Position numbers and translations under genes: made by a program. From Centroscyllium fabricii (Eukaryota), in assembly GCA_051313645.2 (NCBI GenBank), contig JBNRSN020000007.1, positions 182,094,001 through 182,158,000 on the forward strand: a stretch of DNA of 64,000 nt. The letters run 5' to 3'. Under the pieces are notes generated by a model. It had not been told where the DNA came from. It made no database searches and saw nothing but the letters and a program-made list of their open reading frames with translations. The first letter of the stretch is position 1, and each line of letters starts with the position of its first letter. Positions 1,103 through 60,046 of the stretch are shown piece by piece.

Positions 1103-1278
1103 CTTAAAAATACCCGCAATGGATAGGGTCAGGCTGGAGGTTTTAGAGACCAATAGGAATTCAGAGAAACACAGTCCAAATGCCAGAAATCCTCCTGCAG
1201 CCAATACAAACATTATATGCAGCAAAGTCGAGGCCTCATGGTAACGAAACAGTCTCTCCGAGGCAGACAGACTTAGTC
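1103..1278 (-). CDS. SLC35C2: SLC35C2 coding exon 7 (remaining exons lie beyond the window start)
   Basis: ctcaAG|[59 protein letters not shown]|GTGAG; 176 nt. Confidence 0.94.
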
Positions 1279-2824: not shown

Positions 2825-4493
2825 GAAGTGTGGTATAACCAAGGTTCTATACACATTTAACATAACTTCTCTAACATACGAAAGGATTTCTTTTGCATTT
2901 CAGTGTCAGCTTGTCTCAGTGGTATTTCTCTCACCTCCGAGTCGAAGATCAGGGGTTTAAGTCATAGTCAAGGCTGACACTTCAGCACAGTACTGAGGCG
3001 GCGCTATATTGCTGGAGGTGCAGTTTCCAGGAAGAGATGTTAAACTGGAACCTCATCTGCCTGGCCAACATTCCTCCTTCAACCAACAGATTAACTGGTG
3101 GTTTAACTCACTTTCTGATGGCGAGACTTTGGGGTGTGCATGTTTGGCTGCCGTATTTGCCTAAATAGCAGGCGACTGCACTTCAAAACGTAAATCATTG
3201 GCAGAAGAGTGTTTTGGGATGTCCCGAGGGGTTGTCTAGCAACAGGGGAAGGAGGGAAAGGGAGAGGAAATTGGGTGGGGGAGGGAGGTGAAGAAATGAG
3301 CAAAGGTGAGAGAAGACAAAAGAAATCGATATACAGTAAGGATGAAGGGAACAAAACACTGATTACAGAGTTTTGGCAAACTGTCCACAAAATTTGCATC
3401 TCAGTGTACCTTTCAACCTGTTGCCCAACAATTTGTACAACTAAAATTACAGGCACAGCAAAAAGTACTGAGCCAAAATTCATTAACAAAAACAACCAAG
3501 GTACCCAAATCATTAATGGGGAACCTTGCTGACGAGGAAGCACACATGAATATCAGGTGAAGACAGGGCTGTGATCTACTCAACAGTTTGCCAAAACTCT
3601 TGTCCAGGTACACATGGAAATGAAACCCATACATAACTACCATTATGACGAAACCTGTGCCATTTGGAGATGTTCACCAAGCATGCCCCACTTCTATCAA
3701 ACCCTGGTACTGCCCGTCCAGTGTCCCCAAACCGCCCCCCCCCCCAAATCTCTCAACTCTTCTCCCAGTTCCTCCACACCCTTCCGTCCTCAAACGCGCT
3801 CGCACGCCATACCGCTACTCCAAATATGCTTGGGCCTGACCTTCCCATGACCTCATGCCCACTACTCTCACATCCAATGGCTCTCCTCCCCAATTCCCCC
3901 AGAACCCAACATTTTTCCATTTTTCGTTGACCCTACCACCCCATTTCTAGAGCTCCCACAGCCCAGGGCCACCAGCGCAAATCAAAACTTGCGAGAGAGG
4001 AAGTAAGGATCTGTAGGGATAACAGTACGCAAGACTTTTAATATATTATCCTCCCAGAGTCCTACAGTCTGGACAAACACCAGAGACCCAAGATCTATTG
4101 AACCCCAAATGATCCTTTTGTTTTACACACCTAACTCTTTAAATATAGGGCAGTCAATCAATCAAGATCAAAACAACAATATTGCTTTGATATGTAGAGA
4201 TTTTTTCTATAAGATTTGTTTTTAAAACATTGGCCTAGAAATTTGGGTCCCCACGGGTGAGTACGCGCTGGGTACTCACCCGTAGGCCCATCCAAAGTGC
4301 CGGTTTCGTGCATGCACAGCGCATGCGCGCGAAACCAGCACTTCCGATCCCCCGACAGTAGGGTGCGTGCGCGGGAGCGGCAGCCCGTGCGCACTGCACT
4401 TCCGCTTTTTTTATAGGATTCTGTGTCCGGGTAAGTCTCAAAAAGTTACGGATGATATTTTCATGTGTAAGGCCTGCTTTTAACAAGGTAAGT

Positions 4494-7306
4494 GGTGAAT
4501 TACCTGCCTGCGCGACCTGTGGTCCTGCACTTGGCTGGGCGTTCCCACTCACAGGGCTTGCCCCTGTGGTCGACCCCTGCGTGCCCGACTTATACCTCTT
4601 ACACTGGTTTATATCTACCCGTTGCCACGTAACCTCTGGCCCGGGGTACCCTGCTCCTGGACCCTCGTGGGCCAATTGGAGAAATTCCCTCCTGTGCTGC
4701 TGCGGCACAACCCACTGTTCCTCCCTGAACAACATTCCTTCCTTAACGGAGAGGGTCGCCCTATTGTATGGGCCCTCTACCTGCTTGTCCTCACTAATAG
4801 CTTTGAGGACAGCTTTTAAAACGGGATCCTGGTTTTGGACCGTTTTGAGATCCAAAGGCAGGGGAACCTCCTTATCCCAGATCGCTGCCACAGGTCCGGA
4901 CCCGTAGGGGTCCCAGAAAGTGCCTTCACGAGCACCCTCCTTGGCCAGCGCATCCGCCCGCTGATTGCCTCCCCCACGTGGTTCCGTGGAAGAGTGAGCC
5001 TTCACCTTGTGGCTGAAGATCTCCCCTTCTTCCCCTACTGCTGCTAGGATCTTCTCCAACAAGGGCTTTACCGTTAATGGCCGCCCGTCCGCGGAAGTGT
5101 ACCCGCGACGTGACCATATGGCCAGATACTCCGTGCACGAGTTGCACGTAAACATACTATCGGAGCAAATTGTGTACGGGGTTGGGAAGGTCTCGGGGTG
5201 GGTTACCACGTACGCCACCGCCGACAGCTCGGCCTGCTGCGCGCTCATGGTGCGGGGAAGCTTAACCGCCAGGGCGATGTCTGCCGTAGGGTCAAAAATC
5301 CCGCAGCCCGTGAGTCGTTCGCCAGCCACCACCGTGCTGGAACCATCAACATAGATCTCGCGGCCCGTGGGATGTATCCCGGCTCGCAGACCTATGTTTA
5401 CCTCCCATAGCCCCTCCACGGAACACCGATGGGTCGTTCCGGGGTACATCAAATTTGCTGCGAGCTTGGGCTCGCACAAACCCTCCACTTTTAAATCCAT
5501 TTGGGACAAAAGAAGAGTCCAGCGCGCAATTCTCGCGCTGCTCACGGTCCCATCCTTTATCCTCCCATCCAGGAGCATCCTGGTGGGTGTGTGGTGGGTG
5601 AGGAGAGTAATGGGAGAGGTTCCCGTGAAGATTAATGATCTCTTCACGGCCCAATGCGTGGCTAAAAGATGCCGTTCGCAGTTGGAGAACCCCCTCTCCA
5701 CCTCCGTGAGTACCCTTGAGGAATACACCACCGGTCGCAGCTTGCCGTGCCGCTCTTGGAGCAGCACCGCGCTCAAGCTGTCCTCGCCGGCTGCTACCTC
5801 CAGGGAAAACTCCTTCCCCCCCTCTATGGCCCCCAGGGCTGGCGCGGTTTGCAAGTCCCTCTTCAACTTTTCAAACGCCGCCTGACAGCCCTCATCCCAT
5901 GACCACCCAACTCCCTTATGTAAGAGTCGGAGCAGCGGAGCTGCTGTGGCTGCATAGTCCTCAATGAAGTCTCTGCAATACCCGGTCAATCCCAAAAAGG
6001 ACCTCACACCCTTTACGGTGGTCGGGATCGGTAGCTCCTGTACCGACTCCCTCCTGGCCTTATCTATGGCCCTTTCCCCCGCGCGGATGGTCAGACCCAG
6101 AAACTTTACTTCTGTCTGGCCAATCCGTGCCTTCTTCGGGTTTATTTTAAAACCCTTCCTAGCCAGTAATTCCAGCAGCTCGCCTAGCAATGGCAAGTGC
6201 TCATCCCTCGTGTCCGTAAACAGGAGTAAGTCGTCCACATACTGCACTATCTGATTGGGCTGACTAAACTCCTTTAAACTCCCTGCCATACACTGGTGGA
6301 AAATACTGGGGCTGTTGTGGAAGCCTTGCGGCAAACAATTCCACGTGTACTGCTGCCCTTTAAACGTAAAGGCAAACTTGTACTGATCCTCCCTCCGCAG
6401 CGGGATGGACCAAAACCCGTTGGAGATATCCAACACCGCAAACACCGTGGCGGAAGCGGGAATACTCCCGATCAGGTCGGCAACTGCTGCCACCGTGGGC
6501 ACGCAGGCGGGGATGTTACTGTTGAGGACCCGATAATCCACCGTGGCTCTCCATGAGTTGTCTGGCTTCCGTACGGGCCACAACGGAGAGTTCACATGGG
6601 TGGCTATCGGCCTCAACACGCCCTGCCGCACCAGTGAAGACATTGCTGTCTCCAGATCGGACTCCGCTTCCTTAGGGAAGTTATACTGTTTCTGGGGTCG
6701 GGACATGGGATCCCCCTGTACGCTAACCTCAAACCCTAAGACCCTCCCGCAATCGTGCTTGTGGGTCGCAAAGGCGTTTATATTACACGTTACGGCCGCC
6801 TGCATGTCGGCCGGAACCCCCTTGGACAAACTTTCGAGGTCGTAACCTCCGGACGGCTTCATGGTGCATAGGGTCCCCTTCTCTTCTTCCTCCCCTATGA
6901 CCACAACTTCACCTCTTCCACTTTCGGCTGCCCATAAACAGTGATTCCTTAGGTCGATCATGATCCCATGTGCTCCCAGAAAATCTGCTCCTACTATACC
7001 TCTGCCACCTCCTTCTTCCCATTTCAGTAGGATGCACTCCCAAGTGGTGTGGAGCGCTCCTAACTGAATGGAGAGTGGCCTAGAGCGCGCGCCCCCCTGT
7101 TCCTTGCCCGTAAACCCTGCTAATGCAAAAGGGACTCCGGTGGACATTGGGGAATTAAACGGCTTCTCTGTATGGATCACGGTGCATGAGGCCCCCGTAT
7201 CCAACAGATAATTCCCCTCCTGTCTCTCCACCTCCATTTCCACCAGAGGTCTCCTCCATGCATCATAACGGAGCGGACACAGGTAAATGGGCAGCGCGGG
7301 TCTTAG
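4494..7306 (-). pseudogene. pol (PR-RT-tether-RNase H-IN with core deletion), in frame with gag
   Basis: YLLDTGAS, LPQGFHNSP/YVDD, YVDGS...AQQAEL...SDS...KVKAH...NQRADALAK, AHEGPGAGYPG then INQCKRYK; no DDE core. Confidence 0.9.
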
Positions 7307-9227
7307 TCATTGGGTTTCCACGTGAGGGGCTGCGGTGCCTGCGGAACCGGTGGCCACCGCTGCCTTCCCCTGGGAAGCCATATACAACTTCATGGCCCCC
7401 AGCGTGGACTCAATCGTCTCGGGACTTAAAGTCGCCCCGGCACCTCCTGTGGGAGCGGGTGCTCGGGTTGGGGCTACCTTCCCCTGGGAAGTCATATAAA
7501 ACTTCATGGCTTCCAGCATGGACTCAATTGTTTCGGGACTTAGAGTGGCGCCGGCACCTCCTGTGGGAGTGGGTGCTCGGGCTGGGGCTGCGGGAGCTCT
7601 TTCCTTGACCTCCCTCCACGGGGCTCTACAGTCTCTGCGCCAGTGGCCTGCCTTCCCGCATCTATGACATGTAGACTGCCCCGGGTTGCCCCCCTCCTGA
7701 TACCACTCTCTCTGCGCTGGGGCGTTTGCGTTAGTCGCATACACCTTCCCCTTATCGCAGTGCATCACCGAACTCCTTGTATTTTTATACCCAACCGTGA
7801 GTCGGTTGAGGACCGTCTCCTCTGTGGTTAGAGCATCGGTGGGGTCAAACCACACCTTCGCCTGCTCTCTAACGGCGGGTAGGCTGTTGGCAACGATACA
7901 CCGGAGCCACTGGGCTCTCCCGGCATCGCGCAAAACAGCCCGTGCAGGTACATCTGGGCAGCTGCGCTGATACACAGGCCACAGCCTCCCGGCGAAAACC
8001 CGTGGGGGTTCTCCCTCCATCTGCACGGTCCTACCCAGCCTTACAAACGGACCTTCATCGTCCATCCCTAATATTTCTAGGACCTCGTCCCGCAGGTCGT
8101 TATAACAATTCTCCCCCCTTTTGCTCTCGTCGGAGAGACACTGAAGGATAGAGCTATCCAAAGAGAAAAGCAACATCCTGGCTTGCTCCCCTTCGTCACA
8201 GCCGTTAATCGCTGCGGCCTGTTCGACCTCTCTAAAATGCAGGGACGGATCGCCTGCTGCGGACAGCTTCCTGAAATGCCCTATCATGCTCCTTATCTGT
8301 TGCGAGCTATGGGGCACTATAACCTCATTCAGGATGGGCCCGGGATCCCCAGCCGCAGTGTCGGGACCCCGCCTCGTCTCTCGAACCGGACACATGGGTG
8401 CCGGGTCTGGATTCCCCATTTTGGGAACCTTTGCCGCCACCTCCTCTCTGTCCCCTTTCTCCCATGCTTGCGTATAGTGGGGTGATCGCGCGGGGAGCGC
8501 GGGGGCTGGTGCCTCCGGCGCCCTCCTCCTTAACTTTGGCTTCGGGGGTTCCTGAGCTACCTTTACCTCACCCACCGATGGGTCGATGAGGCACACCAGA
8601 CCATTTGACCTGTTCAGGGCCTCCCTGAGGTCCTGAATCTCCTTTAAACAAGCGCCATGATCGGCGTCCTCATATCTGGCCTCGAGGGACATTTTGTATG
8701 CTGCCCTCATCCCCAGTAAATCCTCCTCCTGTGCCTTCAATTGGCCACTTAGGCGGACGCACCTTTCCCTGAGCTTCCCTTCACTTGACATGGCCTCTAC
8801 GACTTGTCTTTCTAGGAGCTCAACCCTAGCTTCATGGCGGTTGGTCTTCACCTGGCGCTCATTATTTAGAGCCTCTAGCGCGGTGATTAACCGCTGCCCC
8901 CGAGACCTTTTCCTCCACTTCTAGGACTAACCCTTTTATCTGCGCGGTCTGCGCCGCAATCACCTGGTCCGAAAGCTGGACCTGCTTTTTATAACACATT
9001 AGCCATACGGCTTTTTCTACTGCTTTTTTATGCCCCTTGCTACCCGTCCAACGGATAGCTGCATCCAGTGGGCGTTTGTCTGCCAACAGGTCCCCAATCC
9101 ACTGCTTTGTTAAATTCACTTTGCTGAATACATAATCAGCAATCCTTTCCTCCATTACGCTTCTTTTATTCAAGGCTGAGTCCAATATATCTCTCTCCTG
9201 CTGCCAACATCCTGCCGCGGTCGCCAT
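7307..9227 (-). pseudogene. gag of the retrovirus-like element (one frameshift near 8910)
   Basis: ORFs 8862-9227 and 7307-8851 are offset by 1 nt; coiled-coil N-terminus, CHRCGKAGHWRRDC knuckle, duplicated 38-aa C-terminal repeat. Confidence 0.85.
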
Positions 9228-9229
9228 TC

Positions 9230-10917
9230 TGTAAGGAGCGTGCGCCGTATATTTTATTGTACGACTTGGGGTCCGTTACTGCCTTGCGCTAGCAGTCCGC
9301 TAGGCCTCGCGCAATAACCTCCTCCCCCGCGAGCGGTTCGAATCGCTCACCCTTACGGTTCTAGACGTTGGACTTAGGTGCAGGAGAAGAGAGAGAGACG
9401 AGATGGATGCCGATTGGACTCAGATTTAGACTCGAATAAAAGTTTGTAAAGTTGGAAGATTTTTATTACACCAAGAGATATATTTACAGCAGTAAGGGTA
9501 AAGGTTTATTACACCAAGAGATATATTTACAGCAGTTAGGTTGTATTTCATCAGAATGACACAGTATGATACACCAACAATTGTTTCCCAAACAGATATA
9601 TATATATATATGTACATACACAGATAACTTATGGGATGGGGAACGCACGGCTCAACGTAAATCGGGCAATGACTCTATAAATACACCCCAAATAAACCAC
9701 CCTTCCCTCTATTGCCTAGCTATGTCCAGGTGTGTAGGATCGAGGCACATGCTCACCACTCGGTAATACTCGGGGTCTGCTACGAAGTTCCTCGTTTCCT
9801 CGGCTGCAGCGTCGGTCGTCACGTGGCTGTGGAAGATTCGGGAGTCCACTTGTTGTCTTCTCCCTTGGGGCGGCGGTCGCTCCTGCTCGGGCTGGTCCCG
9901 GACGGGTTCCTCGAGGCTGCTCTATCTCCTCGCACCAACCGCACCGTCTCCCTGGCTGAACCGGACCCTGGGGTATGCCGATCCTGCCCTCTCAAGCCGA
10001 ACTGTAACGGGCTGCTAGCCTAATTGCTCTCCCACTCTTCGAACGCTAGCTTAGTTGTCGTGTTCAACAAGATGCTTTACCAATGGGCCTCCCAACAACC
10101 AACTACCTCACCAGCAATGGTTTTCCGATGCGATACTGCCCTGACCCAACTCTGCTGTCCTGCCAGAGCCTTCACCCTGCTTGCCCTGCACCCAGAAAGC
10201 TGAACTGGAGTCTTCGAAACAGAGAGCCCACCCAAAGTTACTGCTAGACCTCACCGCTTCAAGAGGTCGCCTCCACGAGTCGATTCCAAGAGCCTTCTCC
10301 AAGAGCTCTTTCCTTCAGCTATTTTTCCAAGAGAGATTTTTACCAGAGAGCGAATTCTAGAAATGTCCTGCCAGTTATACCCCAAATGTTGAATGCCTAA
10401 TGTCTTTCCCATTAGGGCCTGTATTGTGTTTAGAAAACGGTTACTGCATTCCTTTGTCCAGCCGAGCCTGCTGGTAATAGTTTTGATGGTGGCTCTAACT
10501 TCTCCGGTTAGAGTCCCATTGTTTTCAAGGGTGCTAATCGCTTTATGCTCGAAGGGTATACAATTTCTGTAGCTGGCTAAACGGGCCAGCTGCTTCGTAT
10601 TTGCAGTTGTTTTGGGTGCTTATTTAACTGGGTGCATTTCTTTGTCGGGCTAATCGGTTTCTAAAGGGCAGGCTACTTATTTACAGGTTTAACAGCGCCT
10701 TTATGTCTGGTTTCTTCGCGGGCTTTTCGAATTGGGTTTTAGTTTCGGTTTTGCACTATGCCATGTGGTCCGGCGGCCATCTTGGAGGCCCCTTTTCTCT
10801 GATCAGGCCGCAGCCTGTCTTGTCTGTCATTGTTCAAATAAAAGAAAATATGTATACTCCATCCTTCGTTTCTGGTCTTTGTGAATCCGTTTTGACAGGG
10901 AATATTGCGACCCTACA
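9230..10917 (-). repeat. 5' LTR (~1.69 kb) of the retrovirus-like element
   Basis: Imperfect inverted termini TGTAGGG/CCTTACA, TATAA ~10375-10379, duplicated AATAAA block (~9462-9493 and ~9505-9536); PBS starts after a 3-nt spacer. No second copy exists to confirm the ends. Confidence 0.7.
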
Positions 10918-11467
10918 CAATGTAATTTAGTTATATTAAAAAATGATATTTAAAAAAAATTATTTGAAGATTTAGTGATGTTTTGGGGCTTGTAGTTTTC
11001 ATACTTTTGACAGCTCTTCCTGTCAAACTTATGAATGGAGCATTCTCTGCTCCAATTGGCTCTCCATGGCCCACGTGTTCCATTGCACTAACTGCGCCGC
11101 TGGGATACGCAAGCACAGCACGCTGGCAGTTGAGGAAGGCCCCGCATCGGAATTCCACGCGGGCCCACAGCTCAATGGCTGGCGCGCCAGGTAAGTGCAG
11201 GTTGGAGGGTTACACACGCGTGAAGCCTCCGACCCAAATTTCTGGGCCATTATAAAAAGATTAGCACAAATATGACAACTTGTGACACTTAGTGTAGAGT
11301 CCCAAAAGCAGACTTATACAAAGTTTGCACTGAAAGCATGCAACACTCATTGCAGACCCATTAAGCAAGCATATGTACAGTGACTATAGTGAACTTTTGG
11401 ACCTTGCTGTTCTTCACTGAAGTCTACAGTGCCACGACCATTATTAAAACAAAACAGCTCAACATAC

Positions 11468-11551
11468 CTTCATTGAATACAAACAGTGGGAAGAGGCCAA
11501 TGAACATCAGTGGCTGGAGGTGGTACATGGTGTCAATGGGATTCTGTAAAC
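11468..11551 (-). CDS. SLC35C2: SLC35C2 coding exon 6
   Basis: ttcAG|[28 protein letters not shown]|GTATG; 84 nt. Confidence 0.94.
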
Positions 11552-12173
11552 CTGAACAACAAGATAGATTAAAGTTTAGCCATTCCTTCGCATCCTGATA
11601 TTCCTTGGAAAACTGAAATAGCGAAAATCTACTTCAATTTAAAAACAAACTTTTTACTTCAAATGGTTGCATAATAGCCAAAATAAAGCTGAAACATGGA
11701 AATATAAAAGAAAATAAAGGTTAACACACACTGGCAAGAACTGCAATTACAAATCATTCAGTACAAGCAGCACCAACATGGGATCATGAAATCTGATTTT
11801 TTTAAAATCAAACAAGATTCACACATCCCTCTGTACCAAGGATACATGAAGAGTACCCAAGTACTTTCAGGCTGCACTGAACAGGTCAGGATATATTTGG
11901 CAGCTTGTGGTACCACAGCACATGTTCAGACCAGGGCTAAAACTCAAGCATCTGGAGTTATGCATAATCAGCACAGGCCTTATCGGATTCCAAACCCAAG
12001 GATCACACAACTGGGCAATTTTTTTTAATTGAATGGTTCTGTAAAGTTGGCTTTGGAGTTAAACTGTCACATTTCCATCCTGCACCCACTGCAAGTCAAG
12101 CAGCATCCAGCAGGTACAAGGGTTAGAGGATGAAGCAAATTTCAGCCTATTCATTCACATAAATAAACACTTA

Positions 12174-13903: not shown

Positions 13904-15299
13904 AGGGGAATTACAGACCGGTAAGCCTGACATCGGTAGTGGGGAAAATGCTAGAGTCCATTATAAAAGATGTAATAGCAGAGCACTTGGATCGGACAAA
14001 GTCAACATGGATTTACAAAAGGTAAATCATGGTTGACTAATCTGCTGGAGTTTTTTGAGGATGTAACTGGGGAAATAGATAAGGGAGAACCAGTAGATGT
14101 GGTGTATTTGGACTTTCAAAAGGCTTTCGATAAGGTCCCACATAAGAGATTAGCGTGTAAAGTGAAGGCACATGGGATTGGGGGCAAGGTATTGACTTGG
14201 ATAGAGAACAGGTTGGCGGACAGAAAGCAGAGAGTAGGAATAACGGGTCTTTTTCCAAGTGGCAGGCAGTGACTAGTGGGGTACCACAGGGATCGGTCCT
14301 TGGACCCCAGCTATTCACAATATATATTAATGATCTAGATAAGGGAACTAGATGCAATATCTCCAAGTTTGCAGACGACACAAAGCTGGGTGGGCGTGTG
14401 TGCTGCGAGGAGGATACTGAGAAACTCCAGGATGATTTGGACAGGTTGGGTGATTGGGCAGAAGCGTGGCAGATGCAATATAACATGGATAAATGCGAGG
14501 TTATCCACTTTGGTGTAAAAAACAGAAAGGCAGACTATTATCTGAATGGAAATAGATTGGGAGACGGGGAAGTGCAACGAGACCTGGGTGTTCTTGTGCA
14601 CCAGTCATTGAAGGTAGGCATGCAGGTGCAGCAGGCGGTGAAGAAGGCAAATGGTATGTTGGCCTTCGTAGTGAGAAGGTTTAAGTACAGGACTAAGGAT
14701 GTCCTGCTGCAGTTGTACAGGGCCTTGGTGAGACCACACCTTGAGTACTGTGTGCAGTTTTGGTCACCTTATCGGAGGAAGGATGTTCTTGCCATGGAAG
14801 GAGTTCAGCGAAGGTTCACAAGGCTGATACCTGGGATGGCAGGAATGATGTATGAGGAGAGATTGGGTCAATTGGGCTTATACTCGCTGGAGTTTAGAAG
14901 AATGAGAGGGGATCTCATTGAAACTTATAAAATTCTGACAGGTCTGGACAAACTAGATGCAGGAAGAATGTTCCCGATGGTCGGCAAGTCCAGAACCAGG
15001 GGGCACAGTCTAAGGATAAGGGGTAGGCCATTTAGGACGGAGATGAGGAAGAATTTCTTCACCCAGAGAGTGGTGAACCTGTGGAATTCTCTACCACAGA
15101 ATGTAGTTGAGGCCAAGTCATTAAATATATTCAAGAAGGAGTTAGATATATTTCTTAGAGCTACAGGTATCAAGGGATATAGGGAGAAGGCAGGTACGGG
15201 GTAGAGTTTGGATGATCAGCCATGATCTCATCGAATGGCGGAGCAGGGTCGAGGGGCCGAATGGTCTACTCCTGCCCCTATCTTCTATGTTTCTATGTT
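13904..15299 (+). mobile_element. 5'-truncated CR1 (HER1-like) LINE, RT and C-terminus
   Basis: LDFQKAFDKVPH, GVPQGSVLGP, FADD, RPHLEYCVQFWSP; frameshift ~14250; tail TTCTATGTTTCTATG. Confidence 0.93.
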
Positions 15300-15509: not shown

Positions 15510-15678
15510 CTAGCTCTGCCTTCTGAGTAAGAATCTGAGTCAGCGTCCACCGTATCCCCCCGATGAAGGATGCGACCAACACCAGAATGAATCCCTTCAC
15601 GTTAAACTGGGTTGACTTGTACGTAAACATGAAGAGGCCTCCAGCTATTAACAAGATTACCACGATCAGCCATGGTCT
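15510..15678 (-). CDS. SLC35C2: SLC35C2 coding exon 5
   Basis: ttcAG|[56 protein letters not shown]|GTAAT; 169 nt. Confidence 0.95.
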
Positions 15679-15959
15679 CTGAACAAAAAACAGCAACACA
15701 GCCAACAGATTATTCAATAAATAACTGCAAACAACCAAATATATCTTCATTCACCAAGGTAGGCAGGCAATAAATCAAATCTTTCTGGTGAAAGGTTCCC
15801 ACCCAAAACATCACCTTCGGACACCAGCTGATCAGTTTGTCCGTGCCCGGGTGGCCCTGGAGAGGAAGAGTTTGGTGTCTGCCGGTGCTCGAGTCCTTTC
15901 GTGACCAGTGGGCACCTCAACGACTGGTGTATATAGTAGGAACCAGGAATAATATTACA

Positions 15960-19086: not shown

Positions 19087-19316
19087 CTGCAATAGCAAAG
19101 TTACAAAAAAGGATTTAGTAGGAAAAGTTAGCACATTGAAGTTAATCACTAGTTGATCTCCATGATGTTGCTAATGGATGAAAACATTGTGTCTCTACCT
19201 GTATTATTTATCGGCTTCCCACTCGAATCCTTTCTGTGCCCCTTTATGTCTTTCTTTTCATCTGCTTGCTTTTCCTACATCTTTTTATCTGTCATTTTCT
19301 AGCACTCTTTCGACAT

Positions 19317-20618
19317 TGCCCAGAAATTAGGATCGGAGGCTTGCTGCGAGTGCAAGCCTCCAAAGTTCACTTGGGGAGCGCACCTGCCGTTCTCAATTTC
19401 CCACACTTGAACTCCCGATCCAGAGGCCTTCTGAAACTCCCCCACGCCGCGCTGGGGCTACTGAACGGTGGAGTTAGTGCGAGGCTTTCCGCGGGATCAC
19501 GTGGTCCGCGGGGAGCCAATCAGAGCAAAGAATGCTCCATTCATAAGTTTGACAGAAAGATCTGTCAAACTTACAAAATACAGGTTGAAGTTCATTAATC
19601 CGGCAGGGTCGGGACCAGCACCCTGCCGGATTGTTGAAAACGGCGAATTATTGAAGTCACGGCATGCGCAGAACATTCAAAATGGCCGACGCAAAATTTT
19701 CAATGCTCTGCGCATGCGCTCGCCAGTACCTGGCAGTTAAGGGTCGGGTGGAACTCGCACTCGATTCTGCTGCGGGTCAAGCCCGGCTCACGTGACGCCA
19801 TCGCACGCCAGCTTCGGAATGCGGTGATGTCATCACACAGCCAGGCAGGGGCCTCCAGCAGCGATGGGCACCGAGCATTGCCTGTACCGTGTCCTGCGAA
19901 AGGCGGCTGGCACAACAGCTCACCTTCTGGGCCTGGGATTCACCATCGGGGTGGTCACTAAGCCGGGATCCAGTGAGTATATGTTAGGTGAAAGTGAAGC
20001 CCAGCCCCGACGGTGGCCATTGTGAATTGTCTGCGCATGCGCCGGGCAGTCGGGAAAATCTGACGACTGAAGTTGCCGGTTTTTCGGGTGCCGGATTAAT
20101 GAACTTCAACCTGTGCTAGTGCGCCAAAACCACACTGAACCTTAAAATAAAATTTTTAAAACCATCACATTTTTTTAAATTACTATCAATAACATAAATT
20201 AGCTATTTTAAACAAAAAATAAAAATTTAGAAAAAATATTTAAAGTTTTTAAACGGGCCTAAAAATCAACTCACCTGTCTTTAAAGTTTAAAAAAATGAA
20301 AAACTTGTGGAAACAAATGCTTAAATTGAATAAAATAAAGACTTACCTGATGAAATCCACTCCTTGCGCTTGAAAAAAGGAGCCGTAAATATTTAAATAC
20401 CTACCCTGATATAAACCTGTACAAAAAAAATCGCAAGTTCACTGCGCAGCTCGTGCTGCGCAGGCCAACGCGCTGAAGCTCCTGACCCCTCCAGGACTTG
20501 CATCGGAAGTGCTGGTTCTGCGCGCATGCGCGGTGTACGCCTGCAACCAGCACTTCGGATGGCCGCACACGCAAGTACCCCGTCCGTACTCGCGCATTGC
20601 GGCCCTAATTTCTGGGCC
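19317..20618. mobile_element. Harbinger-like non-autonomous element (same family), hosting a Tigger-like MITE
   Basis: Ends GCCCAGAAATTAG / CTAATTTCTGGGCC; internal similarity to the 4232-11248 halves in opposite orientation. Confidence 0.7.
19581..20113. mobile_element. Tc1/mariner (Tigger-like) MITE
   Basis: TIR CAGGTTGAAGTTCATTAATCCGGCA / TGCCGGATTAATGAACTTCAACCTG, TA on the left flank. Confidence 0.8.
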
Positions 20619-20937
20619 AATGTTTCTCCTTCCCTCTTGTGGCCTCTCGTTTCCCAATGTCACTGTAAAGCTCTCACACAGCTGTGTTTACCAATATTCA
20701 ATTGTACATTGCTTTCAGTTTCCCTTCTCGTGTCTGATCGGGTATCTACTAAAACTCGCTTCCACACCACATCATCTTCCTCAGCAACCGTCTCCGATTC
20801 CAACTTATTCCACGTGGATTCCAACTGAATTTCCATCCTCCATGTTTCGGATCCACCTATGATTACAGTTCCTAGAACCACTGCTCTCACCGCTTCCCGA
20901 GATCCACACTCAACGTCACAACGACACATGCACACTC

Positions 20938-48200: not shown

Positions 48201-51200
48201 GCCACCCGCGGGCAGTCCAACAAGGCTGCGGTGGTGTGGACGGCCGACGCCGCCACCGCCTTCACCGCAACTAAAACGGCCTTGGCTAACGCCACCCTCC
48301 TGGCCCACCCTAGGCCCAACGCCAGAGTAGCCCTTACCACCGACGCCTCCGACCACGCGGTCGGGGCCGTATTCGAACAATGGACTGGCGACTCGTGGCA
48401 ACCCCTGGCCTTTTTCAGCCGACAACTCCGGCCCCCAGAGGTAAAATACAGCGCCTTTGATAGGGAGCTACTGGCTCTCCATCTGGCGGTGCGACATTTT
48501 CGCTTCCTCCTGGAGGGCCGACACTTTACAGCCTTCAGCGACCACAAGCCACTCACGTTTGCGATGGCTAAGGTCGCTGAACCCTGGTCGGCCAGGCAGC
48601 AGCGCCAACTCACGGCCGTGTCGGAATTCACAACCGACATTCAGCATATTTCCGGCCGCGGCAACGTGGTCGCTGACTGCCTCTCACGCCCCACCATTAA
48701 CGCCGCCCAAATGGCGGTCGATTACGCCCAGCTGGCCGCTGACCAGCTGACCGACCCTGACCTACTCAACGCAGCAACTAAGCTCCCCGGCCTACATTTG
48801 GCCAATATCGCGCACGGCCCCGCTGCCACCGTCGTATGCTGCGACGTTTCGTTACCGCAACCCAGGCCAGTTGTGCCCCACGCTTGGAGGCAACACATCT
48901 TTAGGACCCTCCACGACCTGTCCCACCCCGGCACCCGCGCGTCCATTAGGCTAGTATCGGCCCGTTTCGTATGGCGTGGCCTGCGCAGGGACGTCCGCGT
49001 CTGGGCCACCTCCTGCATAGCCTGCCAGCGCTCCAAAGTGCACAAGCACATCAGGGCACCGCTGGAAAATTTTAAGGTACCGGCCAGGCGTTTTGACCAC
49101 GTCCATATCGACCCCGTCGGGCCACTACCGCCATCTCGCGGCCACACGCACCTATTGACCATGGTTGACCGTAACACTCGCTGGCCTGAAGCAGTCCCCC
49201 TTACCGCCACCAGCACCACGGACCTGGCCAGGGCGTTTATCGCCACCTGGGTCGCCCGATTCGGCATGCCCACGGACATCACCTCCGACAGAGGAACCCA
49301 GTTTACGTCGACGCTATGGGCGGCCATCGCCCGCGACCTCGGGGTGACACTACACAGAACCACCGCATACCATCCACAGGCGAACGGCCTATGCGAACGG
49401 TTCCACCGCTCGATGAAGGCATCACTACGGGCCACGCTGAAAGACGCATCATGGACCGACCGCCTTCCATGGGTCCACCTCGGGCTGCGCTCGGCAGTCA
49501 AAGAAGACCTCAACGCCTCAGCAGCAGAGCTCGTCTACGGCCAAGCTTTAACGGTGCAGGGCGAATTTCTGGCTGAGGCCAACGCGCCCTGGTCAGCAGA
49601 CCAATATCTGAAAGACTGGGCAAATCCGGCACGAGCCTTCCAGCCACTACCAGTGGCCCGGCATGGAGAGCCGGCAGCTCGGGTGCCAGAGGACATTAAA
49701 AATGCCAAATGGGTGTTCATCCGGCGCGATGGACACCGAGCTCCACTACAGCCACCTTACGATGGCCCATACAGAGTGCTTCGGGCGGGAGCTAAAACTT
49801 TTGAATTACAATGGGGCAACAGAACTGAAACTGTAACGATAGACCGGCTCAAGCTGGCACATGTGACAGCGGGCGAGACCACGGTCCCCGCACAACCACC
49901 TCAACGCGGTCGCCCTCCCGCAACAAAACCCGCCCACACTCCAACGCAGAACCAGAGACTACTAGCAACACGGTCCGGCCGCATTATCCAGCCGCCCCAA
50001 CGACACACATAGACACTTTGCACTATTACTCCCGGACGGATTCTGGGGGGAACTGTGTGGCGGTACACCCACGGGGATATCGAATCCGCCAGCGGGGCTT
50101 CGCGGAGCAGAGCTCCGCTCATCCGGGTGATGCGACTACGTCATCACGTCGGCCGACGCGATGACGTCACCAACCGCGGGACCGTTTGAATATGCCTGTC
50201 CTGAGTGATTCTGCCTCTTTCTTGTTTTTCACTTGTTAGTAAAGCTGTGTTTTCTCTAGCTCTGGCTCACGTGTGGTTTTTGAGACTGCTGGCGCTTCAG
50301 TATCCTTATTCCTATACTCGAACCCTCTTGATATGAAGGCCAACATACCATTTGCCTTCCCAACCGCCTGCTGCACCTGCGTGCTTGCCTTCAGCGACTG
50401 GTGCACAAGAACACCCAGGTCTCTCTGCACCTCCCCATCTCCCAATCTATTGCCATTTAAGTAGTAATCTACCCTCCTGTTTTTGCCCCCAAAGTGGATA
50501 ACCTCACATTTATCCACATTATAGTGCATCTGCCATCTATCTGCCCAGTCCCCCAACTTATCCAAATTGCCCTGTAACTTCCTGACACCCTCTTCAGAGC
50601 CTGCCCCCCCTCCTAGTTTGGTGTCATCCGCGAATTTGGAGATATTACATTCAATTCCCTGATCCAGATCATTAATATATATTGTAAACAGCTGAGGTCC
50701 CAGGACAGACCCCTGCGGTACTCCACTAGTCACCGGCTGCCACTCAGAAAACGAGCCGTTAATTCCAACTCTCTGTTTTTTGTCTGCCAACCAGTTCTCT
50801 ATCCACATCAAAACTTTGCCCCCAATCCCATGAGCCTTAATTTTACATGCTAATCTTTTATGTGGAACCTTATCGAAGGCTTTCTGGAAGTCAAGGTACA
50901 CCACATCTACTGGCTCTCCCCCATCTATTTTCCGAGTTACTTCCTCAAAGAATTCCAATAGATTAGTTAAACATGATTTACCTTTTGTAAACCCGTGTTG
51001 ACTCTGTCCGATCTCATCCCTAATTGTCAAATGCTCCGAGATTACATCCTTGATAATGGACTCGAGCATTTTGCCCACTACTGATGTAAGGCTTACTGGT
51101 CTATAATTCCCTGCTTTCTCTCTGCCCCCCTTTTTAAATAGTGGGGTAACATTAGCCACCCTCCAATCCGTGGGTACTGATCCAGAGTCTATCGAGTTCT

Positions 51201-52547
51201 GGAAAATGATCCTTAAAGCACCCTCTATTTCCAGGGCTACCTCTTTAAGTACCCTAGGATGTAGATTATCAGGCCCTGGGGATTTGTCGGCCTTCAATCC
51301 CTTCAACTTCCCCAAAACCATCTCCCTAGAAATACTGATATCTGTCAGCTCCTCCCTTGCATTAGACCCTATGTTCGCTGCTATCCCTGGGAGGTTGCTT
51401 GTGTCCTCCTTTGTGAAGACAGTACCAAAATATGAATTTAGTTGGTCTGCCATTTCTTTATTCCCCATTATATATTCCCCTGAATCGGACTGCAAGGGAC
51501 CGACTTGGGATTTTACCAATCTTTTCCTCTTGATGTACCTATAAAAGCTTTTGCAGTCAGTTTTTATGTTTGCCGCCAGCTTACATTCGTAATCTATCTT
51601 CCCCCTCCTGATTAATCCCTTTGTCTTCCTTTGCTGTATCCTGAACTGCTCCCAATCTTCCGGCCTAGTACTTTTTTTGGCCAATTGATATGCCCATTTT
51701 TTGGATTTAATGTTGTCCCTTATTTCCCTTGTTATCCATGGTTGAGTCACCTTTCTAGGTTTATTCTTATGCCAAACCGGTATGAACGAGTTCTGTATTT
51801 CTTCCATCCTATACTTGAATGCTTGCCATTGTCTATCCACATTCAATCCCCCCAGGAACACTGCCCAATCTATCTTGCTTAATTCCCTTCTCATACCTTC
51901 ATAATTCCCTTTATTTAAATTCAGGACCTTAGTCTCTGAGTTGATCTTTTCACTTTCCATCTCAACTGAGAATTCGATCATATTATGATCGCTCCGACCC
52001 AAGGGGCCTCGTACAACTAGATTGCTAATTAGTCCCTTCTCATTGCACAATACCCAGTCTAAGATGGCCTGATCCCAAGTTGGTTCCTCGACATATTGGT
52101 CCAGATACCCGTCCCGTAGACATTCTAGGAATTCCTCCTCCTCAGTATTTTTACTAACTTGGCTAGTCCAATCAATATGTAGATTAAAGTCGCCCATGAC
52201 GACAGCTGTGCCCTTATTGCAAGCTTCTCTAATTTCCCTTTTTATGCCGTCCCCCACCTCCATATTACTATTTGGAGGCCTGTATATAACTCCCACTAAT
52301 GTTTTCCGCCCTTTACTATTTCTTAGTTCTACCCATATAGATTCCGTATCATCTGAGTTAATATCCTTCCTTTCAATTGCATTTATCTCCTCTTTCACCA
52401 GCAATGCCACCCCACCTCCCTTTCTTTTGTGCCGATCCTTTCTGAATGTTGTATACCCCGGGATGTTGAGTTCCCAGCCTTGCCCCCCCTGCAGCCATGT
52501 TTCCGTAATTCCAATCAACTCATATTTGCTTACCTCTATTTCCACAG
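45239..52547 (-). mobile_element. CR1 (HER1-like) LINE, 5'-truncated, ORF2 otherwise open, split by element B
   Basis: EN (GITETW, MGDFN, SDH) and RT open over 50300-52547; C-terminus 45343-45851; (ATTCTATG)n tail at 45239-45262. Confidence 0.95.
45852..50299 (+). mobile_element. Gypsy element B, CsRN1/Kabuki-like, young full-length
   Basis: 244-bp LTRs 45852-46095 and 50056-50299 identical by eye, TSD GTAT, PBS TGGTGACCCCGAC (tRNA-Trp) 46097-46109, PPT; gag-pol from ATG 46186 with TAG at 47872 and frameshift ~48150. Confidence 0.97.
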
Positions 52548-53057
52548 CTTTGAGGGCGTCCAGGGCGCTCTTGTAGGTCGTTTCGCCCTCGATTAAGCTG
52601 AAGAGCTTAGGGCTGACCTGGATCGCAGGACGTTGAGCTTCCACTGGTTTGTGTCCACGGTCAGGCAGGATTCTGCGAGGAAGGCTTCGAAGCAGGAGAC
52701 CCAGTGTGTAAAAGCCTGCTCAGCGCCTGCTGATTGCGGGACGAGGTTGAGTCTATCGGGCCTCAGGAACTTCTCCATCCTCTTTGTAAAACAAACTATG
52801 TGAATAAAATTGATGCACAATCAATTACGCCAGTCGATGATTAGATGTAATCGAGGCTTTTATTCACATAGAACAGGACACAGGTCCGACGATCTTCCAA
52901 GCCAAAGTGAGAGCACTCAGGTGTGCTCTCACTTTTATACCCAGTGGGCGGAGCCTGGGGCGAAGCCGAGGAGCGGAGTCCTCCCAGGTGAGTCCTCCCT
53001 GGCAGGGAGACGTTACGTGCAGTTACAGGCAGGGGACACAAGGGGGAGACATATATA

Positions 53058-54869: not shown

Positions 54870-57800
54870 TGTGGTAAACCACTGTATTGTATTATAGTTC
54901 ACTGCACTGTATTATAGTTCACTGTATTGTATTATAGTTCACTGCACTGTATTATAGTTCACTGTATTGTATTATAGTTCACTGTACTGTATGTATGTAA
55001 CCTGCCTGGACATGCCCCTGCTGACTCCGCCTGTGGCTCCTCCCTCAGACCAAGGTATAAAGGTGACTGTCTCCCAACCCCCCTTCAGTCTGGGACCAGT
55101 CGAATCAGCAGAGGTGTGCTCCTGTTCTTTAGCTAATAAAAGCCTATCTTTTAGTTGCATTACTTCTAGTCTTTTGAGGTTATTGATAGTGCATCAATTT
55201 TATTAGCTAATTTTTTTTACCATGGAGCAAATACTGAAACCTGCAACGCTAGAACTGGATCCTCAATCGCCAGATGCTGCAAACACTTTTGAGCACTGGC
55301 TGAGCTGCTTTGAAGCGTTCCTTCAAGCCTCCAACATTACCGTCCGGACCGACGCTGACAAGCTGCTGGTCCTCAACTCCCGGGTGAGCCCCCGAGTGTA
55401 TTCAATAATCAGAGACGCTACGTCGTATAACGAGGCGATCAGACTCTTAAAAAGTCAATATACTAAGAAGGGCAATGCAGTCTACGCCAGACACCTCCTG
55501 GCTACCCGCAAACAGCAACCCAGGGAATCGAGTGACAAATATCTGCGGGCGCTGAGAGTCCTCGGTCGGGCCGGTAACTGCAAAGCGGTGACGGCCATAG
55601 TAAACACAGAGGAATTGATCAGAGATGCCTATGTCGCCAGCATCAGGTCCAGCTACACCCAGCAAAGACTTCTGGAACAGGGTGGGCTCGACCTACAGAA
55701 AATGATAGAACTCGCTGACTCGCTAGACGTGGCCCTCCGGAACATGGCCGCCTACTCCCCTGACCACGCAGCCGCCTCGTGGATGTCGCGGGCACCGCCA
55801 TCTTGGGACTCGGGAAGGCTGCAAGCCTGCGCCATGCTGCCTCCACCGCGACCCACCAGCGGCCCGACCACTGCTGCGATATCGAGAGGCCCGAAGTGCA
55901 ACTTCTGCAGCCAGGCCAAGCACCCCAGGCAACGCTGCCCGGCGAAGGATGCGATCTGCTCCGGTTGCGGTAAGAAGGGGCACTACCCTAAGGTGTGCAA
56001 GGCCAAACCGGCCTCCAAATCCAGCAGCGCCGCATGGGGGCCGCCATCTTGGACGTTGCCGGCCGCGTGTGAGCCGGGCAGGCCGCCATCTTGGGACCAG
56101 GCCCCCGACTGCCCCACCGCCTCAACGGAGTACGACAGCGACTCATCGAACCCAACGCTGGCCTCCATCACCCTGGATCAATCCAGGCCCCACCAACTCG
56201 CCAGGCCAATGATGAACATTAAGGTAAACGGCCGCGCTACGAACTGTCTGTTTGACTGCGGAGAGCTTCATCCACCCCGATACGGTGCGGCGCTACACTC
56301 TGTCGGTATCGCCAGCAAGCCAAAAGATATCCATGGCTTCCAAGTCCCATACAGCGGACGTCTGAAGCTACTGCGTGGTGACCCTGACTGTGCAGGGCAC
56401 GGAATATAAAAACTTTAAGCTCCTCGTGCTGCCACAGCTCTGTGCTGCCGTGCTATTGGGGATCGACTTCCAATGCCACCTTAAGAGCGTGACAATGGAG
56501 TACGATGGGCCCCTTCTCCCCCTCACTGTCTGCAGCCAGCAGTTTTTAAATTGCCCACAGCGCGCCATCCACAGCCCCACGGCCCCATCTCCCGCTGCCT
56601 ACAGCCAGCAGCCTTTAAATCGCCCACCACGCACCATCTGCAGCCTCTCGACCCTGAAAGTCACCCCTCCTCCGCTGTTCACTCACCTCACCCCAGACTG
56701 TAAGATAGTTGCCACCAAGAGTAGGCGGTACAGTATCAGGGACAGAAACTTTATCAAGTTAGAGGTGCAGCGGCTCCTGAAGGAGGGGATCATTGAGGCT
56801 AGCACCAGCCCCTGGAGAGCCCAAGTGGTGGTCGTAAAGACTGGCGAGAAGCACCGCATGGTCATCGATTATAGTCAGACCATCAATCGATATATGCAGC
56901 TGGACGCGTACCCCTTCCCCGCATATCTGACATGGTCAATCAGATTGCACAATATCAGGTATTCTCCACCATTGATTTAAAGTCTGCATACCACCAGCTC
57001 CCTATCCGCCCGGAGGACCGCCAATATACTGCCTTCGAGGCTGATGGCTGCCTCTACCACTTCCTTACGGTCCCCTTCGGCGTATCCAATGGGGTCTCGG
57101 TCTTCCAGCGGGAGATGGACCGAATGGTTGACCAGAACGGGTACGGGCCACATTCCCATATCTGGATAATGTCACCATCTGCGGCCATGTCCAGCAGGAC
57201 CACGACGCCAACCTCCAGAAATTTCTCCACACCACCAAACTCCTAAACCTGACCTACAACAAGGGGAAATGTGTATTCCGCACAACCCGCCTCGCCATCC
57301 TTAGCTGTGTCGTGGAGAATGGGGTCATCGGTCCCGACCCCGACCGCATGCGCCCCCTCCTGGAACTTCCCCTCCCCCACTGCCTCAAGGCCCTGAAGAG
57401 ATGCCTGGGCTTCTTCTCATATTATGCCCAGTGGGTCCCTAATTAGAGCAGACAAGGCCCGCCGCCTCATCAAATCCACCTCTTTTCCCCTGACGGCAGA
57501 GGCCCGCCTGGCTTTCAACGGTATCAAGGCAGACATTGCCAAGGCCGCAATGCACGCTGTGGACGAATCCACCCCGTTCCAGGTGGAGAGCGATGCATCG
57601 GATTTTGCCCTTATCGCTACCCTTAACCAGGCGGGCAGACCCGTGACCTTCTTCTCACGAACCCTCCAGGGTCCTGAAATTAGACACTCCTCTGTCGAAA
57701 AGGAGGCCCAGGCCATTGTGGAAGCTGTACGGCACTGGAGGCATTACCTGGCTGGTAAACAATCCACCCTGCTGACTGACCAATGTTCAGTTGCCTTCAT

Positions 57801-59394: not shown

Positions 59395-60046
59395 ATGCAC
59401 ACCAAGGTCCCTCTGATCCTCTGTCTTTCCTCGGGTCTTACCATTCATTGTGTATTCCCTTGCCTTGTTAGTCCTTCCAAAATGCATCACCTCACACTTT
59501 TCAGGGTTAAATTCCATTTGCCCATCTGACCAACCCATCTATATCATCCTGCAGGCCAAGGCTTTCCTCCTCGCTATTTACCACCCCACCAATTTTCGTG
59601 TCATCTGTGAACTTTCTGATCATACCTTTTACATTCCTGTCGAAATCATTAATGTAGACTACAAACAGCAAGGGACCCAGCACCGATCCCTGCGGTACCC
59701 CATTGGACACAGGCTTCCAGTCACAAAAACAACCTTCGACCATCACCCTCTGCCTTCTGCCATTAAGCATGTTTTTGTGCCAAGGTGCCCTGGATCCCAT
59801 GGGCTTTTACCTTCTTGACCAGTCTCCTATGCGGGACTTTATCAAAAGCCTCACTGAAATCCATGTATACCACATCCACTGCATTACCCTCATCCACACG
59901 CCTAGTCACCCCCTCGAAAAATTCAATCAAGTTGGTCAGACATGATCTTCCCTTGACAAAGCCATGCTGAGTATCCGTGATTAATCCTTGCCTCTCCAAG
60001 TGGAGACTAATCCTGTCCCTCGGAATTTTTTCCAATAATTTCCCTA
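59395..60046 (-). mobile_element. CR1 LINE RT fragment
   Basis: QHGFVKGRSCLTNLIEFFE, DFSEAFDKVPH, GVPQGSVLGPLLF, FTDD. Confidence 0.9.

What the first reader, a model, noticed from the sequence alone, without database searches (positions are those of the whole stretch)
4494..10917. Lokiretrovirus-like element with two RNase H domains in an apparent shark genome
Seen: pol has a Gypsy-like RNase H with degenerate catalytic motifs (LEVAAGEDSLSAVLLQ, CERHLLA, LLTHHTP), followed by a retroviral-type RNase H (YVDGS, AQQAEL, SDS, KVKAH, NQRAD). Gag has a long coiled-coil N-terminus. Established: tether + RNase H is a retroviral hallmark shared by lokiretroviruses. From my recollection these were reported mainly from lampreys, bony fishes, amphibians and reptiles. 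Inference: a chondrichthyan member would inform retrovirus origins; the long open pol suggests intact relatives may exist.
Basis: partly seen in the sequence, partly recalled or inferred. Interest (0 to 1): 0.7.

Follow-up and report, generated by a model that had tools for sequence, protein, structure and literature searches.

The report
Young envelope-less retrovirus family, not Loki
This is a broken copy of a young, many-copy endogenous retrovirus with no envelope gene in any copy examined, in what is likely a shark or ray genome; our trees place it with ordinary retroviruses rather than lokiretroviruses, and it likely spreads by copying itself inside germ-line cells.

Summary
The two RNase H domains are real, but this is not a lokiretrovirus. 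Its RT falls inside canonical retroviruses (98/99; 99 with RT+tether), and nesting in Loki is rejected (p≤3e-6). A sister position to Loki is disfavoured but not firmly rejected (p 0.015–0.34). It groups with a proxy for elephant-shark CmiERV lineage I (snakehead-retrovirus-like, 2015), which has the same CERHLLA tether motif and an env. The window copy is defective: gag frameshift, in-frame loss of the integrase core, no 3' LTR. The family is young and abundant: 40 of 40 scored hits ≥99% identical, LTR pairs 99.5–100%, 4-bp target duplications, dN/dS about 0.03–0.11, and no room for env in any copy examined. It likely retrotransposes in the germ line. Points of real interest: the tether and integrase remain Loki-like; gag ends in an alphavirus-type UGA-CUA readthrough context; the first gag ATG overlaps the tRNA-Arg primer site. 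It is a new variant of a known kind.

The parts
9230..10917 (-). 5' LTR (1688 bp, TGT...ACA)
   Evidence: matches both LTRs of other copies at 80-94%; ends read
9209..9226 (-). primer binding site for tRNA-Arg(TCG), 3 nt after the LTR; overlaps the first in-frame gag ATG (9225-9227), which has A at -3 and G at +4
   Evidence: complement found at 66 genomic sites; of 6 such loci run through ARAGORN, 2 were called tRNA-Arg(tcg), 1 undetermined (tcgg), 1 tRNA-Ser(act), 2 none; same layout in 10 of 10 young copies and a 72%-identical subfamily
7310..9227 (-). gag: helical N-terminal part, capsid-like middle, one CCHC knuckle (7625-7672), 114-bp tandem duplication (7359-7586); broken in this copy by a frameshift near 8865-8920
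   Evidence: one open 625-656-codon frame in 10 of 10 other copies; Atlas feature leads to retrotransposon/Ty3 capsid clusters, lead only
7301..7309 (-). in-frame gag-pol stop, context TGA-CTA (readthrough inferred)
   Evidence: window and 10 of 10 copies; 9 of 12 further loci TGA-CTA, 1 TGA-CAA, 2 with other stops nearer or further
6974..7258 (-). aspartic protease (LLDTGA)
   Evidence: Pfam RVP E 0.001 and gag-asp_proteas E 0.012, both below cut-off
6086..6574 (-). reverse transcriptase core (YVDD)
   Evidence: Pfam RVT_1 E 7e-35
5501..5899 (-). tether: degenerate Ty3/Gypsy-type RNase H without catalytic acids
4931..5359 (-). second, catalytically complete RNase H
   Evidence: Pfam RNase_H E 1e-18; motifs
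4615..4708 (-). N-terminal remnant of the integrase zinc-binding domain; core removed by a 933-bp in-frame deletion at 4614 that 3 of 10 other copies share
4500..4614 (-). short piece of the integrase C-terminal region; the element breaks off at 4500 (rest of pol, 3' UTR and 3' LTR absent)
   Evidence: run X8 shows loose ends at 4500 and 4614/4617
4231..4491 (.). left part of a ~750-bp host repeat with terminal inverted repeats into which the provirus inserted
   Evidence: 69% match to an uninterrupted copy in L018
10928..11250 (.). right part of the same host repeat; about 0.14 kb of the repeat is missing together with the provirus's 3' end

Best explanation
The window holds a defective copy of a young, many-copy endogenous retrovirus family that our trees place among basal canonical retroviruses, near a proxy for elephant-shark CmiERV lineage I; no examined copy has an env gene, so the family likely spreads by retrotransposition in the germ line. 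Inferred steps: RNA from the 5' LTR is likely translated from an ATG overlapping the primer site. Gag ends at UGA-CUA, and occasional readthrough would give Gag-Pol. tRNA-Arg(TCG) would prime RT, the second RNase H would degrade the RNA while the first acts as tether, and integrase inserts the DNA with a 4-bp duplication (duplication shown). Copies lacking the integrase core, like this one, were likely mobilised in trans by complete copies. This copy later lost its 3' end together with part of the flanking host repeat. Env loss is likely secondary, because CmiERV-I has an env.
For: RT tree, 68 rows: canonical clade 98/99 holds the query, Loki clade 100/99 excludes it, and the query sits in a 14-row clade (83/94) with amphibian and coelacanth ERVs and P0129. 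RT+tether tree, 51 rows: Odin-like rows sister to Loki (99), query in the canonical clade (99). RT identity is 47% to SnRV, 52-54% to two nearest relatives and 35-40% to six Loki rows, whereas Loki rows share 55-77%. P0129 matches CmiERV scaffold 2 by eye; that element also has CERHLLA, a TGA-C junction and a gamma-type TM env. Youth: 40 of 40 scored hits 99-100% (312 candidates); 40 of 40 at 100% in the 3' UTR (628 candidates); LTR pairs 99.5-100% in 9 of 9 copies that have both LTRs; 4-bp TSD in 7 of 7 copies with both ends readable. pN/pS 0.03-0.11 in 9 of 9 pairwise comparisons against one copy. No env: pol stop to 3' LTR is 828-890 bp with no frame over 132 codons in 9 of 9 copies; 30 of 30 further loci are collinear with one such copy (one is that copy itself); 2 older copies (84-93%) are also collinear. 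Two integrase-deleted copies have clean TSDs and 99.5-99.9% LTRs.
Against: A sister-to-Loki position is not firmly rejected: p-AU 0.037 (34 rows), 0.34 (68 rows), 0.051 (RT+tether), 0.015 (whole 9-row lineage). SnRV itself joins the query's group only in the quick tree (89) and is unresolved in the careful tree, whose bootstrap had not settled. Tether and integrase score higher to Loki than to SnRV. The link to CmiERV-I rests on reading by eye through a proxy. No class II retrovirus was in the trees. Fetched copies were the best hits, so they are biased to young subfamilies, and an env-bearing member could exist unseen. Readthrough, start-codon use and expression are untested.
Confidence: 0.84

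Rival explanations
1. The lineage is the sister group of Loki+Odin, or branches before the Loki/canonical split, rather than being a basal canonical retrovirus.
For: AU tests do not reject it in the full RT set (p 0.34) and only marginally with RT+tether (0.051). Tether 90-98 bits and integrase 218-233 bits to Loki versus 54 and 138 to SnRV. The quick IN tree joins them at 96.
Against: All three ML trees put it in the canonical clade at 85-99; moving the whole lineage is rejected (p 0.015). In the careful IN tree the Loki link dissolves into a basal polytomy, as expected for shared ancestral, slowly evolving sequence.
Confidence: 0.08
2. The lineage is a mosaic: canonical RT with a tether/integrase exchanged with lokiretroviruses (either as donor of Loki's integrase or as recipient).
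For: Wang and Han report repeated RH/IN replacement and an unexplained source for Loki IN (PMC7947760). In the quick IN tree, Loki nests within this grade. Relatives are named 'NYNRIN-like' by NCBI, and Loki IN is reported close to CGIN1/NYNRIN.
Against: The nesting is unsupported in the careful IN tree, only 3 Loki and no Odin IN rows were included, and plain retention of the ancestral domain explains the same scores.
Confidence: 0.06
3. A true lokiretrovirus of a cartilaginous fish.
For: Dual RNase H, helical Gag N-terminus, Loki-like integrase scores.
Against: Nesting in Loki rejected (p 3e-6 and 5e-8); Loki RT motifs absent; no env. A Loki RT query finds at best 39-43% identity among 150 scored hits in this genome, and 12 of 12 fetched loci are this family or its subfamilies.
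Confidence: 0.01
4. An ordinary Ty3/Gypsy retrotransposon that gained an extra RNase H independently.
For: No env; Atlas feature leads for Gag point to retrotransposon capsids.
Against: The branch separating it from all Gypsy rows has 100/99 support; best solved-structure matches are foamy and MLV RTs ahead of Ty3.
Confidence: 0.01

Closest known systems
CmiERV lineage I of the elephant shark (Han 2015, PMC4422223), SnRV-like / clade Huo (PMC6001957)
   Same: Read by eye from the supplement: closely similar RT motifs, the same CERHLLA and LEVA tether motifs, an in-frame TGA-C gag-pol junction, a repeat-rich helical Gag N-terminus and a similar purine tract. Its proxy P0129 falls in the query's RT clade.
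   Different: CmiERV-I has a gamma-type env, a different primer site followed by a long leader, a shorter LTR and an old insertion (LTR divergence 3.3%). This family has no env, no leader, ~1.7-1.9-kb LTRs, a ~320-residue low-complexity Pol tail and a recent burst of copies.
Snakehead retrovirus (SnRV)
   Same: RT 47% identical; gag-pol joined by an in-frame stop (PMC13517186).
   Different: SnRV is exogenous, has env and accessory genes, and uses UAG-GGC; its tether and integrase are distant from this family's.
Lokiretroviruses and Odin retrotransposons (PMC7947760, PMC9040795)
   Same: Dual RNase H with a recognisably Gypsy-like tether; similar integrase; Odin also lacks env.
   Different: Separate RT clade; Loki has an F-like env; no Loki reported from cartilaginous fish (supplement row Orectolobiformes 3 and 0, which I read as 3 genomes screened and none positive).
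Env-less amplifying ERVs such as ERV-L/MuERV-L
   Same: Works alike: env-less, high copy number, selection on pol. That env loss goes with copy-number bursts is recalled, not from a call; retrotransposition in cis and complementation in trans are described in PMC10435555.
   Different: ERV-L is a separate RT clade (100/100), with 5-bp TSD, no zinc finger and no GPF/Y motif (PMC4299795 Table 1); this family has a 4-bp TSD, a CCHC knuckle and GPY.

Membership tests
Lokiretroviruses | RT inside the Loki clade | tested here: not met
   6-10 Loki/Odin rows labelled by motifs read in the PMC9040795 supplement
Lokiretroviruses | tether plus second RNase H | tested here: met
   not diagnostic, shared with all Retroviridae and Odin
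Lokiretroviruses | env related to paramyxo/pneumovirus F (PF00523) | tested here: not met
   no env-sized frame after pol in 9 of 9 copies, 30 of 30 further loci and 2 older copies collinear; the genome-wide PF00523 search was blank but insensitive
Lokiretroviruses | integrase of the Loki/CGIN1 type | tested here: inconclusive
   higher scores to Loki than to SnRV, class I or foamy; 96 in the quick tree, polytomy in the careful tree; no CGIN1 row available
Lokiretroviruses | smc-like extra gene (only in some members) | tested here: not met
   no further long sense ORF inside the ten copies
Canonical Retroviridae | RT inside the canonical clade | tested here: met
   98/99, 99; AU tests against a sister-to-Loki position gave p 0.015-0.34
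SnRV-like / CmiERV lineage I (clade Huo) | RT outside class I, ERV-L and foamy clades, with CmiERV-I-like rows | tested here: met
   (14-row clade 83/94 including P0129); P0129 to CmiERV-I link by eye
SnRV-like / CmiERV lineage I (clade Huo) | monophyly with SnRV itself | tested here: inconclusive
   joined at 89, unresolved, apart
SnRV-like / CmiERV lineage I (clade Huo) | env downstream of pol (Han's criterion for calling CmiERVs) | tested here: not met
   read as secondary loss
Class I (gamma/epsilon) ERVs | RT in class I clade | tested here: not met
   class I 100/99 excludes the query, although the 4-bp TSD, CCHC knuckle and GPY motif are class I-like
ERV3/ERV-L and crocodilian ERV4 | 5-bp TSD, no zinc finger, no GPF/Y | tested here: not met
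   against Table 1 of PMC4299795
ERV4 | RT in the ERV4 clade | not testable with these tools
   no identified ERV4 sequence was at hand
Ty3/Gypsy (Metaviridae) | RT within Gypsy, single active RNase H | tested here: not met

The most novel reading that the evidence does not exclude
This lineage is among the earliest branches of canonical retroviruses and still carries the ancestral tether and integrase shared with Loki and Odin, so Loki did not replace its integrase; the other retroviruses diverged or swapped theirs. Its elasmobranch branch has turned back into a currently jumping, leaderless retrotransposon, with its primer site encoding Gag's first codons and with alphavirus-type UGA-CUA readthrough, a context not listed for any retrovirus in the review section read.
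Probability: 0.3. Interest if true: 0.65.

Novelty: new variant of a known kind. Interest (0 to 1): 0.38.

Why it matters
It removes the claimed first cartilaginous-fish lokiretrovirus: SnRV-like ERVs of cartilaginous fish have been in print since 2015, and clade III ERVs are known to be numerous there (PMC11089739). What remains useful is a young, well-preserved family from a poorly sampled basal retrovirus lineage that published Loki/Odin trees represent only by SnRV (in the alignment parts read). Its Loki-like integrase makes the 'Loki replaced its integrase' model testable. Its UGA-CUA junction and primer-site-overlapping start codon are unusual for retroviral gene expression. Its recent burst may add to a 7.2-Gb genome.

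Tried and rejected
Genome-wide PF00523 search: nothing, but the tool used a stricter first look and no control rang, so this is no evidence of absence. PF00429 env search: 78 hits. None of 12 fetched loci shares more than one 35-bp match with this family. Of 8 env loci extended towards pol, those with a retroviral integrase are only 40-46% identical to this family's, so they are other lineages. Viral-contig scan: no relative. Sequencing runs: no RNA holder listed. A contig joint 4501-11043 in one run (31 letters on the short side) may come from other copies of the host repeat and was not taken as an empty site. Downstream RNA stimulator of readthrough: z -1.17 over 183 nt; z near 0 for 60-150 nt and -1.4 to -3.6 for 200 nt, with four lengths tried; covariation term only -1.1 kcal/mol and the stem base is often broken in the two most divergent rows: inconclusive. 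Single-sequence Gag model too poor for a fold search. My first pol-stop motif matched only 1 of 30 loci and was replaced by a blastn collinearity check. My provisional 'SnRVlike' label is not one clade, and P0249, labelled foamy, fell among Gypsy rows. Earlier-findings look-ups returned nothing. Paper searches: no paper held all of UGA CUA/readthrough/retrotransposon/gag-pol; two listed for primer binding site/overlaps/gag start codon/endogenous retrovirus, neither read; three mention CmiERV. The library lacks most subscription papers and Repbase/Dfam, so this family may already be catalogued there.
Full report
Observation. The element lies on the minus strand: 5' LTR 10917-9230, primer site 9226-9209, gag to a TGA at 7309-7307, then pol in the same frame. 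Pfam finds RT, a Gypsy-type RNase H-like domain and a second retroviral RNase H, each far beyond chance, plus weak protease and integrase-zinc-finger hits. The first RNase H has lost its catalytic acids when aligned to Gypsy domains; the second keeps them. This copy is defective. gag is frameshifted near 8865-8920, a 933-bp in-frame deletion at 4614 removes the integrase core, and similarity ends at 4500 with no 3' LTR in the window. It inserted into a ~750-bp host repeat with terminal inverted repeats, and about 0.14 kb of that repeat is missing along with the provirus's 3' end, which points to a later deletion.

The family. The 7.2-Gb genome holds many copies: 40 of 40 scored hits at 99-100% for an RNase H stretch (312 candidates) and 40 of 40 at 100% for a 3' UTR stretch (628 candidates); both are lower bounds. 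I fetched 10 of the first 40 hits. All 10 have one open gag frame of 625-656 codons and an open pol frame through RNase H. Nine have both LTRs, 99.5-100% identical (0-7 substitutions in 1.5-1.9 kb). Seven of 7 with both ends readable show a 4-bp target duplication. By t = d/2u this is 0-0.9 My at the mammalian rate or 0-9 My at the shark rate assumed in PMC4422223; the copies were chosen as best hits, so this dates the young end only. A copy with the full integrase scores for the zinc-binding, core and SH3-like domains and has a GPY motif, followed by a ~320-residue low-complexity tail. pN/pS over 800 pol codons is 0.03-0.11 in 9 of 9 comparisons with one copy, so copies diverged under selection for a working Pol. 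Three of the 10 share the window's integrase deletion; two of these have clean target duplications and 99.5-99.9% LTRs, which implies mobilisation in trans (inference). Between the pol stop and the 3' LTR lie 828-890 bp with no frame over 132 codons in 9 of 9 copies. Thirty of 30 further loci, picked for identity to one copy's 3' UTR and including that copy, are collinear with it, as are 2 older copies among 8 fetched; the other 6 are truncated or rearranged. Env-bearing ERVs exist in this genome (78 PF00429 hits) but belong to other lineages in the loci examined. Sixteen public runs under six coded organism labels, two unlabelled runs and a fish gut metagenome among them, hold half or more of the sampled words. 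The four runs laid cover 26-30 of 30 bins, so the family is not confined to one labelled organism.

Placement. I did not enter published sequences into tools, so I fetched relatives and labelled them by short motifs read in the RT alignment of PMC9040795. P0018 matches SnRV and P0174 matches Loki-Lca by eye; P0236 and P0179 are named feline foamy virus and WEHV-1. From 248 RT-bearing rows I chose 68 by hand; no class II virus was among them. The careful tree separates Gypsy (100/99), Loki (100/99) and canonical retroviruses (98/99) and puts the window in the last, outside class I, ERV-L and foamy clades, in a 14-row group (83/94) of amphibian, coelacanth and unnamed ERVs; its bootstrap had not fully settled. 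A 51-row RT+tether quick tree recovers two Odin-like rows as sister to Loki (99), as published, and keeps the window's lineage (9 rows, 96) in the canonical clade (99), outside a group (92) that holds ERV-L, SnRV, foamy and class I rows. Nesting in Loki is rejected (p 3e-6 and 5e-8). A sister position to Loki gave p 0.037, 0.34, 0.051 and 0.015: disfavoured, not excluded. A Loki RT query scores at best 39-43% in this genome, against 55-77% among Loki rows, and 12 of 12 fetched hits are this family or its subfamilies. Only 150 candidates were scored, so this is not proof that the genome has no Loki. None of the named Loki hits comes from a cartilaginous fish.

Closest known element. Han (PMC4422223) described CmiERV lineage I in the elephant shark as clustering with SnRV. 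Read by eye, its scaffold-2 sequence closely resembles P0129 across RT, and P0129 lies in the window's RT group. The lineage is therefore known, and env loss here is likely secondary. Clade Huo is reported from all major vertebrate groups (PMC6001957), and clade III RT loci are abundant in cartilaginous fish (PMC11089739). The host is probably an elasmobranch: the only Gag relative found is from a skate (60%) and a 66% RT piece is from a sevengill shark. No host gene was tested for this.

What is unusual. (a) Tether and integrase score higher against Loki (90-98 bits for three near-complete tethers, 48-67 for three partial ones; 218-233 for three full integrases) than against SnRV (54; 138), class I or foamy rows. 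The quick integrase tree groups this grade with Loki (96); the careful tree shows a basal polytomy outside a clade (86/82) of class I, ERV-L, foamy and SnRV rows (57 rows, only 3 Loki). Retention of ancestral domains is the simplest reading, and it bears on the proposal that Loki replaced its integrase (PMC7947760). (b) The gag stop is TGA-CTA in the window, 10 of 10 young copies and 9 of 12 further loci. This is the type II context of alphaviruses; section 4.1.2 of PMC13517186 lists only UAG contexts and UGA-AGA/CGA/AGU for fish and frog retroviruses. A downstream stimulator is not established. (c) The first in-frame gag ATG overlaps the primer site in the window, 10 of 10 young copies and a 72%-identical subfamily. 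The skate Gag's first residues back-translate to the complement of another tRNA-Arg(TCG) 3' end found once in this genome. A second conserved Met lies about 25 codons on, so which start is used is open. That retroviruses normally have a leader of several hundred bases here is recalled; CmiERV-I has one.

Mechanism. Shown: architecture, catalytic motifs, absence of env in the copies examined, 4-bp duplications, youth and purifying selection. Inferred: LTR-driven transcription, the start codon, readthrough to Gag-Pol, tRNA-Arg priming, intracellular retrotransposition, and trans-mobilisation of integrase-deleted copies.

Papers seen. PMC7947760: parts 1-3 of 4 and one supplement search (the file was cut when stored). 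PMC9040795: parts 1-2 of 4, supplement 2 parts 1-2 of 3, one supplement search. PMC4422223: part 1 of 2 and supplement 1 part 1 of 3. PMC8278194: part 1 of 8. PMC13517186: passages and section 4.1.2. Passages only: PMC6001957, PMC10435555, PMC12193657, PMC4299795, PMC9447858, PMC12440569, PMC10699275, PMC11089739, PMC4977317 and bioRxiv 2024.03.25.586437. Figures were not visible, and unread supplements (for example the ERV lists of PMC6001957 and PMC11089739) may already include this family.

Verdict. The feature is real and the headline is wrong. This is a new, env-less, recently amplifying variant of a known basal retrovirus lineage, with three side features worth a specialist's look. Interest 0.38.

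Noticed in passing
window 1103-1213, 11457-11552, 15514-15702 (minus strand): Exons of a nucleotide-sugar-transporter-like host gene (the name SLC35C2 is recalled; Pfam TPT only E 0.032, below cut-off). The provirus lies in one of its introns in the same orientation.
   Followed up: partly
window 9230-10917 and LTRs in L015-L029: LTRs differ 4-15% between copies, with an indel-rich middle, while internal regions are about 97-99% identical: several LTR subtypes on one coding backbone, possibly from recombination.
   Followed up: partly
L026:3050-4076: Pol carries a ~320-residue acidic, repetitive tail after the integrase with no Pfam match; function unexplained.
   Followed up: no
window 7359-7586: 114-bp tandem duplication (89%) at the Gag C-terminus; the skate homolog has one unit.
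   Followed up: partly
L093:1775-9623 and L032:4800-9500: Copies followed directly by another gag after an LTR, i.e. tandem elements that appear to share an LTR.
   Followed up: no
L099-L106: Other ERV lineages with PF00429-type env; several have integrases 40-46% identical to this family's, scoring best against it among the queries tried: likely env-bearing members of the same basal grade.
   Followed up: partly
L033-L036, L108, L109: Dense clusters of tRNA-Arg-like sequences on two contigs; ARAGORN calls some 90-92-nt tRNA-Arg, one tRNA-Ser(act) and two nothing: possibly arrays or tRNA-derived repeats.
   Followed up: partly
window 29000-50000, 55200-64000; 14161-15204; 50236-52719: Several nested Gypsy-like LTR elements of at least two families with long ORFs, and CR1-like LINE ORF2 pieces (labels from reading the translations).
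   Followed up: no
window 4231-4491 and 10928-11250; 19315-20625; L018:8797-9549: A ~750-bp repeat with terminal inverted repeats, probably a non-autonomous DNA transposon, with further partial copies in the window.
   Followed up: partly
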